DNA of 64,000 nt, from assembly GCF_030013205.1 (NCBI RefSeq), contig NZ_CP122648.1; one strand, given 5' to 3'. The stretch is from Escherichia coli (GTDB taxonomy: Bacteria > Pseudomonadota > Gammaproteobacteria > Enterobacterales > Enterobacteriaceae). The position numbers and the translations under genes were made by a program. Shown here piece by piece: positions 35,485 through 35,529 of the stretch (its first letter is position 1; each line of letters opens with the position of its first letter). The notes below the pieces were generated by a model. It saw only the letters and a list, made by a program, of their open reading frames with translations, was not told the DNA's origin and did not search any database.

Positions 35485-35500
35485 CGTAAAAAGATGTGAA
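35485..35500. promoter_or_regulatory. CRP-binding site in the galP promoter
   Basis: TGTGA-agcaaa-TCACA, perfect half-sites with 6-bp spacer, ~55 bp upstream of the galP start. Confidence 0.5.
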
Positions 35501-35513
35501 GCAAATCACATCA

Positions 35514-35529
35514 GTGTAATCGCTTACAC
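35514..35529. promoter_or_regulatory. GalR/GalS operator in the galP promoter
   Basis: GTGTAATCGCTTACAC matches the gal operator consensus. Confidence 0.5.

What the first reader, a model, noticed from the sequence alone, without database searches (positions are those of the whole stretch)
35485..35529. Adjacent CRP site and gal operator upstream of galP
A perfect CRP palindrome TGTGA-N6-TCACA and a consensus GalR/GalS operator GTGTAATCGCTTACAC lie 13 bp apart, consistent with known galP regulation.
Basis: partly seen in the sequence, partly recalled or inferred. Interest (0 to 1): 0.15.

Follow-up and report, generated by a model that had tools for sequence, protein, structure and literature searches.

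The report
Known galP promoter: CRP site plus operator
This is the already well-studied control region of the E. coli galactose transporter gene galP, where the cAMP-CRP activator site sits next to the strongest Gal repressor operator in the genome; it is real, conserved and ordinary.

Summary
Both motifs are real. The window's only perfect TGTGA-N6-TCACA lies at 35495-35510. Its only perfect GTGNAANCGNTTNCAC lies at 35514-35529. Both sit 64-98 bp upstream of the galP start codon (minus strand, ATG at 35431).

The window is E. coli. The core promoter is identical to K-12 MG1655. The operator maps exactly onto the published galP operator at MG1655 3088186-3088201, which gave the strongest GalR ChIP-chip peak genome-wide. 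A second published operator, 182 bp upstream, is also present at 35696-35711.

In 74 of 79 distinct enterobacterial galP upstream regions, the operator, the CRP half-sites and their 19-bp offset are conserved. So is a -10 element 29.5 bp from the CRP centre.

This geometry superimposes base for base on galE P1 (operator -60.5, CRP -41.5). It implies class II CRP activation that operator-bound GalR/GalS blocks, which matches the published AND logic (cAMP AND galactose).

The transcription start (~35461) and the -41.5 position are inferred, not checked against a mapped start. Already known; low interest.

The parts
35495..35510 (-). cAMP-CRP binding site core TGTGA-N6-TCACA (22-mer 35492-35513), centre 35502.5. 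Inferred position is about -41.5 (class II).
   Evidence: Unique perfect palindrome in the window. The GTGA/TCAC cores are invariant or nearly so and the spacer is variable in 74 orthologous sequences. The centre lies 29.5 bp from the first base of the -10.
35514..35529 (-). Promoter-proximal GalR/GalS operator ('OI(galP)' of Qian et al.), centre 35521.5. Inferred position is about -60.5.
   Evidence: Matches 12 of 12 specified consensus positions. Identical sequence and matching coordinate to MG1655 3088186-3088201, the strongest GalR ChIP-chip peak (115.4). 15 of 16 positions are nearly invariant across about 30 genera.
35696..35711 (-). Distal GalR/GalS operator ('OE(galP)'), CTGAAACCGATTACAC on the galP strand, 182 bp upstream of the proximal operator.
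   Evidence: One mismatch to the consensus. Equals MG1655 3088004-3088019. Conserved, with 181-184 bp spacing in 67 of 79 sequences.
35468..35473 (-). Inferred -10 hexamer TATCTT (TACCCT in most other genera).
   Evidence: The A at -11 and the T at -7 are at least 95% conserved. The hexamer occupies exactly the same register relative to the operator and CRP site as the galE P1 -10 TATGGT. No -35 consensus is present.
35459..35462 (-). Inferred galP transcription start (about 35461 = MG1655 3088254).
   Evidence: Inference only, from the -10 position and the register shared with galE P1. No mapped TSS could be retrieved.
35436..35441 (-). Shine-Dalgarno sequence GGAGGG of galP.
   Evidence: Read from the sequence. 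At least 95% conserved.
34037..35431 (-). galP coding sequence (galactose:H+ symporter, 464 aa).
   Evidence: ORF list. RefSeq annotation of an identical genome. 89-100% identity to the orthologues found.

Best explanation
This is the regulatory core of the E. coli galP promoter. cAMP-CRP binds the perfect palindrome at 35495-35510, centred about 41.5 bp upstream of the start. From that position it replaces the missing -35 element and activates RNA polymerase by the class II mechanism. GalR or GalS, when free of D-galactose, binds the immediately adjacent consensus operator at 35514-35529 (about -60.5) and cancels the CRP-dependent activation. A second operator 182 bp further upstream (35696-35711) and NagC add to repression, probably through a loop. 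Transcription therefore needs both high cAMP and galactose (AND logic). Shown here: presence, uniqueness, exact identity to K-12, coordinate identity with the published operators, and deep conservation of motifs and spacing. Taken from the literature: GalR occupancy in vivo, CRP dependence, inhibition of CRP activation by GalR, and NagC repression. Inferred: the transcription start, the -41.5/-60.5 positions, and the looping.
For: The motifs are unique in the window. The region is galP-metK intergenic DNA of E. coli, and the promoter core is 100% identical to MG1655. The 74-bp core is present in 5425 of 5426 complete E. coli genomes, at 99% identity or more in 4935. The published operator coordinates and sequences coincide with the window's sites, and galP is the top GalR ChIP-chip peak. 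The papers state that PgalP is inactive without cAMP-CRP, that GalR inhibits CRP activation, and that the logic is AND. The operator-to-CRP offset of 19 bp is kept in 74 of 79 distinct orthologous regions. The CRP core and operator are near-invariant while the spacer and N positions vary. The -10 lies 29.5 bp from the CRP centre. The operator, CRP site and -10 are in the same register as in galE P1, where the published positions are OE -60.5 and CRP -41.5 (established knowledge). A simple sigma-70 scan finds no -35/-10 consensus promoter on the galP strand, as expected for a CRP-dependent promoter.
Against: No experimentally mapped galP transcription start or curated CRP-site coordinate could be retrieved, so the class II assignment is geometric inference. 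The primary papers were not readable here (Weickert & Adhya 1993; Semsey et al. 2007; El Qaidi et al. 2009). Five of 79 orthologous regions lack this architecture.
Confidence: 0.95

Rival explanations
1. The palindrome is an RNA hairpin: an intrinsic terminator or attenuator acting on read-through transcripts from metK, which is upstream on the same strand. It would then not be a protein-binding site.
For: The terminator scan flags 35512..35493 on the minus strand (7-bp stem followed by a T-run). The RNA folds at -9.3 kcal/mol with z = -3.1.
Against: Any perfect palindrome folds, so the fold is not informative. metK has its own strong terminator at 35847..35823 (10 pairs, 6 G-C). Across 74 orthologues the core pairs never change by compensation. 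The outer T-A pair is simply broken in 24 sequences, and the two extra stem pairs are broken in 31-37. Sequence, not pairing, is conserved, which is the signature of a protein site.
Confidence: 0.02
2. The motifs are real binding sites but work in a different geometry. CRP might act as a class I activator or a repressor of a start site elsewhere. Alternatively, the operator might be used mainly by another LacI-family regulator.
For: The TSS was not verified here. The LacI-family core AANCGNTT is shared by many regulators (established knowledge).
Against: The conserved -10 (A at -11, T at -7) sits at exactly the class II distance, and the layout is identical to galE P1. GalR ChIP-chip gives its highest score at this site. 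The flanks GTG/CAC that define Gal operators are invariant.
Confidence: 0.03
3. The two consensus matches occur next to each other by chance and have no function.
For: None beyond the general caveat that consensus matches occur by chance.
Against: A perfect CRP palindrome is expected 0.06 times per window. The only 0- and 1-mismatch operator matches both lie in this intergenic region. The motifs are conserved across about 30 genera.
Confidence: 0.005

Closest known systems
E. coli K-12 galP promoter (PgalP), with operators 'OI(galP)' and 'OE(galP)' and cAMP-CRP activation
   Same: The sequence is identical from the ATG to about 108 bp upstream. The operator sequences are the same, and so is the 182-bp inter-operator spacing. 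Coordinates coincide after mapping.
   Different: Nothing differs in the core. The window's strain differs from MG1655 only further upstream, by scattered substitutions and a 13-bp insertion next to a REP-like remnant near the metK terminator.
galETKM P1 promoter (OE at -60.5, CRP at -41.5)
   Same: Same 19-bp centre-to-centre operator-to-CRP spacing, and the same distance from the CRP site to the -10. The two promoters align without gaps from the operator to the -10. Both are class II CRP promoters antagonised by GalR bound at about -60.5.
   Different: galE has a second, overlapping CRP-independent promoter (P2) and an internal operator at +53.5, with HU-dependent looping. galP has its second operator 182 bp upstream, a perfect CRP palindrome (the gal site has one degenerate half), no activity without CRP, and an additional repressor, NagC.
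mglBAC promoter of the gal regulon
   Same: It is also regulated by cAMP-CRP and GalR/GalS.
   Different: At mglB the repressor and activator sites partly overlap (Kaplan et al. 2008). At galP they abut without overlapping.

Membership tests
GalR/GalS operator (gal regulon) | 16-bp hyphenated dyad GTGNAANCGNTTNCAC, with functionally critical positions 3, 5, 9 and 15 (definition quoted) | tested here: met
   35514-35529 matches 12 of 12 specified positions, including G3, A5, G9 and A15.
GalR/GalS operator (gal regulon) | Occupied by GalR in vivo and required for galactose-responsive repression | not testable with these tools
   Literature only. The identical MG1655 site gives the highest GalR ChIP-chip score (115.4), and galP is up-regulated in a galR deletion.
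GalR/GalS operator (gal regulon) | Located in the regulatory region of a galactose transport or metabolism gene, typically with a partner operator | tested here: met
   The site starts 83 bp upstream of the galP ATG. The partner operator is at 35696-35711. Both are conserved in orthologues.
Class II CRP-dependent promoter | CRP site matching TGTGA-N6-TCACA | tested here: met
   Perfect match at 35495-35510. The half-site cores are conserved in 74 sequences.
Class II CRP-dependent promoter | Site centred near -41.5, overlapping the -35 region | tested here: inconclusive
   The centre is 29.5 bp upstream of the first base of the conserved -10 TATCTT, which gives -41.5 if the start is 35461. The register is the same as galE P1. 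No mapped TSS was obtained.
Class II CRP-dependent promoter | Promoter activity depends on cAMP-CRP | not testable with these tools
   [quoted passage not shown] The absence of a -35 consensus is consistent with this.

The most novel reading that the evidence does not exclude
The only loose end is a conserved 30-bp block (35608-35637) about 10 bp from the midpoint between the two gal operators. It matches none of the gal-operator, CRP or NagC patterns I tested. It could be an undescribed architectural or third-factor site at the apex of a galP repression loop, whose 181-184 bp span is itself conserved across genera. The primary paper on this region (El Qaidi et al. 2009) could not be read and may already explain it.
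Probability: 0.1. Interest if true: 0.25.

Novelty: already known. Interest (0 to 1): 0.05.

Why it matters
It matters little as a discovery. galP regulation by cAMP-CRP, GalR/GalS and NagC is textbook and database knowledge. The check is useful as a calibration point. A reader working from sequence alone identified a genuine, experimentally validated regulatory module, apart from a wrong spacing figure. The comparative analysis shows how tightly the operator-to-CRP-to-(-10) geometry is held across Enterobacteriaceae.

Tried and rejected
1. I tried to obtain a curated or mapped galP TSS and CRP-site coordinate. Semsey 2007, Krishna 2009, Weickert & Adhya 1993, Geanacopoulos & Adhya 1997, El Qaidi 2009, Thomason 2015 and Plumbridge 2001 are not held.
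2. The supplements of Kim et al. 2012 and of the Crp ChIP-exo paper contain no galP TSS or site.
3. Most 'galP' literature hits with CRP terms refer to the gal operon promoter 'galP1', not the galP gene.
4. A 1-bp difference near the -10, suggested by a published K-12 primer, was checked against MG1655 and is not real.
5. The terminator-hairpin reading was rejected on the substitution pattern.
6. The conserved block at 35608-35637 does not fit a NagC operator, because its TT/AA positions are poorly conserved.
7. The cap on papers read was reached before FITBAR (PMC3098098) and PMC9189660 could be read.

Full report
**What is in the sequence**

Reading 35100-35900 shows TGTGAagcaaaTCACA at 35495-35510 and GTGTAATCGCTTACAC at 35514-35529. 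The large minus-strand ORF 34037-35443 begins, at the ATG at 35431, with [15 protein letters not shown]. In a 100%-identical E. coli genome it is annotated as galP, the galactose/proton symporter. metK is the next gene upstream on the same strand. In gene orientation the order is therefore: operator, 3 bp, CRP palindrome, about 22 bp, -10, then the ATG.

The gap between the 16-mers is 3 bp, and the centres (35521.5 and 35502.5) are 19 bp apart.

**Is it more than chance?**

- The perfect CRP palindrome is the only one in the 64-kb window. Dinucleotide-preserving shuffles give 0.06 expected. With up to 2 mismatches there are 25 matches against 27.5 expected, so only the perfect site stands out.
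- The degenerate Gal operator consensus GTGNAANCGNTTNCAC has one 0-mismatch match (35514-35529) and one 1-mismatch match (35696-35711). Both lie in the galP-metK intergenic region.

**Identity with the known system**

The window is E. coli in reverse orientation relative to MG1655. Its galP upstream region is identical to MG1655 from the ATG to about 108 bp upstream and 96% identical overall. The mapping is MG coordinate = 3123715 - window coordinate.

Qian et al. 2016 (PMC5110547) list 'OI (galP)' at 3088186-3088201, GTGTAATCGCTTACAC, and 'OE (galP)' at 3088004-3088019, CTGAAACCGATTACAC. These are exactly window 35514-35529 and the reverse complement of 35696-35711. In that paper the galP site has the highest information score (25.1) and the highest GalR ChIP-chip binding score (115.4) in the genome. 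galP is one of only three promoters up-regulated in a galR deletion.

A second paper (PMC4073488) states that PgalP is inactive without cAMP-CRP. [quoted passage not shown] A non-looping GalR mutant (T322R) still gave AND logic on a partial galP promoter, so binding at the proximal operator suffices there. Kaplan et al. 2008 (PMC2516365) add that GalS, itself CRP-activated, makes the galP response to cAMP non-monotonic. NagC is a further repressor acting through a single site.

I could not retrieve a curated coordinate for the CRP site or the transcription start.

**Independent comparative test**

A scan of one genome per species with the GalP protein returned 80 loci from about 30 enterobacterial genera, giving 79 distinct upstream sequences.

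- 75 have a proximal operator with at most 1 mismatch.
- 74 have a CRP-like site starting exactly 19 bp after the operator start. Of the 79, 71 have at most 1 mismatch in the 10 specified CRP positions.
- 67 have a distal operator 181-184 bp upstream.

Column profiles of those 74 sequences show the following.

- The operator is invariant or nearly so at 15 of 16 positions. Only position 7 varies freely.
- The CRP cores GTGA and TCAC are essentially invariant, while the 6-bp spacer varies.

The footprint over 78 sequences also shows a -10 element: TATCTT at 35473-35468 in E. coli, and TACCCT in most other genera. Its A at -11 and T at -7 are at least 95% conserved. The first base of this hexamer is 29.5 bp from the CRP centre, which is the class II distance.

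Within E. coli, the 74-bp core is present in 5425 of 5426 complete genomes, and is at least 99% identical in 4935.

**Mechanism**

I placed the MG1655 galE promoter and the galP promoter side by side, anchored on their operators. The CRP sites and the -10 hexamers (TATGGT and TATCTT) fall at identical offsets. My first 22-mer choice for galE was shifted by one base. With the 16-mer TTTATTCCATGTCACA, the galE centre-to-centre distance is 19 bp, as for galP.

The galE P1 layout has OE at -60.5. The CRP position of -41.5 is established knowledge. By analogy, the galP start is at about 35461 (MG1655 3088254), CRP at about -41.5, the proximal operator at about -60.5, and the distal operator at about -242.5.

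A simple sigma-70 scan finds no -35/-10 consensus on the galP strand. That fits a promoter which depends on CRP in place of a -35 element.

The most likely mechanism is class II activation by cAMP-CRP. This activation is cancelled when galactose-free GalR or GalS occupies the abutting operator. Repression is reinforced by the distal operator and NagC, probably through looping. Looping and the exact start site are inferences.

**Rival explanations**

The terminator scan flags the palindrome plus its T-run as terminator-like, and the RNA folds at -9.3 kcal/mol with z = -3.1. Several observations argue against a hairpin function.

- metK has its own strong terminator at 35847-35823.
- Across orthologues there are no compensatory changes in the core pairs.
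- The outer T-A pair is broken in 24 of 74 sequences, and the two extra stem pairs are broken in 31-37 of 74.

Sequence, not pairing, is conserved, so this is a protein site. Chance co-occurrence is excluded by the statistics and the conservation.

**Verdict**

The finding is correct apart from the spacing figure, and it describes a known, experimentally characterised regulatory module. Novelty: already known. Interest: very low.

Three side observations are recorded separately: a conserved block at 35608-35637, a NagC-like 23-mer at 35448-35470, and five lineages with a rebuilt galP promoter.

Noticed in passing
window 35696-35711: A second Gal operator (GTGTAATCGGTTTCAG; CTGAAACCGATTACAC on the galP strand) lies 182 bp upstream of the first. 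It equals the published OE(galP), and the 181-184 bp spacing is conserved in 67 of 79 orthologous regions.
   Followed up: yes
window 35608-35637: A conserved block (TGTTACAT..TTTCAG..GTCTTA on the galP strand) shows 70-95% column identity over 78 enterobacterial sequences. It lies about 10 bp from the midpoint between the two operators. It fits no gal-operator, CRP or NagC pattern that I tested. Its function is unknown to me.
   Followed up: partly
window 35448-35470: This is the best NagC-like 23-mer in the intergenic region, with TT at -6/-5, AA at +5/+6 and C/G at both +/-11. It overlaps the inferred transcription start. It may be the single NagC operator reported for galP, but I could not check it against the primary paper. 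It is only moderately conserved outside Escherichia.
   Followed up: partly
L052, L062 (Enterobacter sp. ENT03 and kpr-6); L053, L063 (Silvania); L054 (Leclercia), upstream of galP: Five of 79 orthologous galP upstream regions lack the operator-CRP module. In two, a consensus TTGACA sits a few bases upstream of the operator and no CRP site is present. In three, the intergenic region is short, with a single operator about 138 bp from the ATG. This suggests lineage-specific rewiring of galP control.
   Followed up: partly
window ~35770-35815: A REP-like remnant (GCCGGATGCGGCGTGAA...) lies downstream of the metK terminator. Relative to MG1655, the window's strain carries a 13-bp insertion next to it.
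   Followed up: no
window 35823-35847 (minus strand): The strong intrinsic terminator of metK (10-bp stem, 6 G-C pairs, T-run) insulates galP from metK transcription.
   Followed up: no
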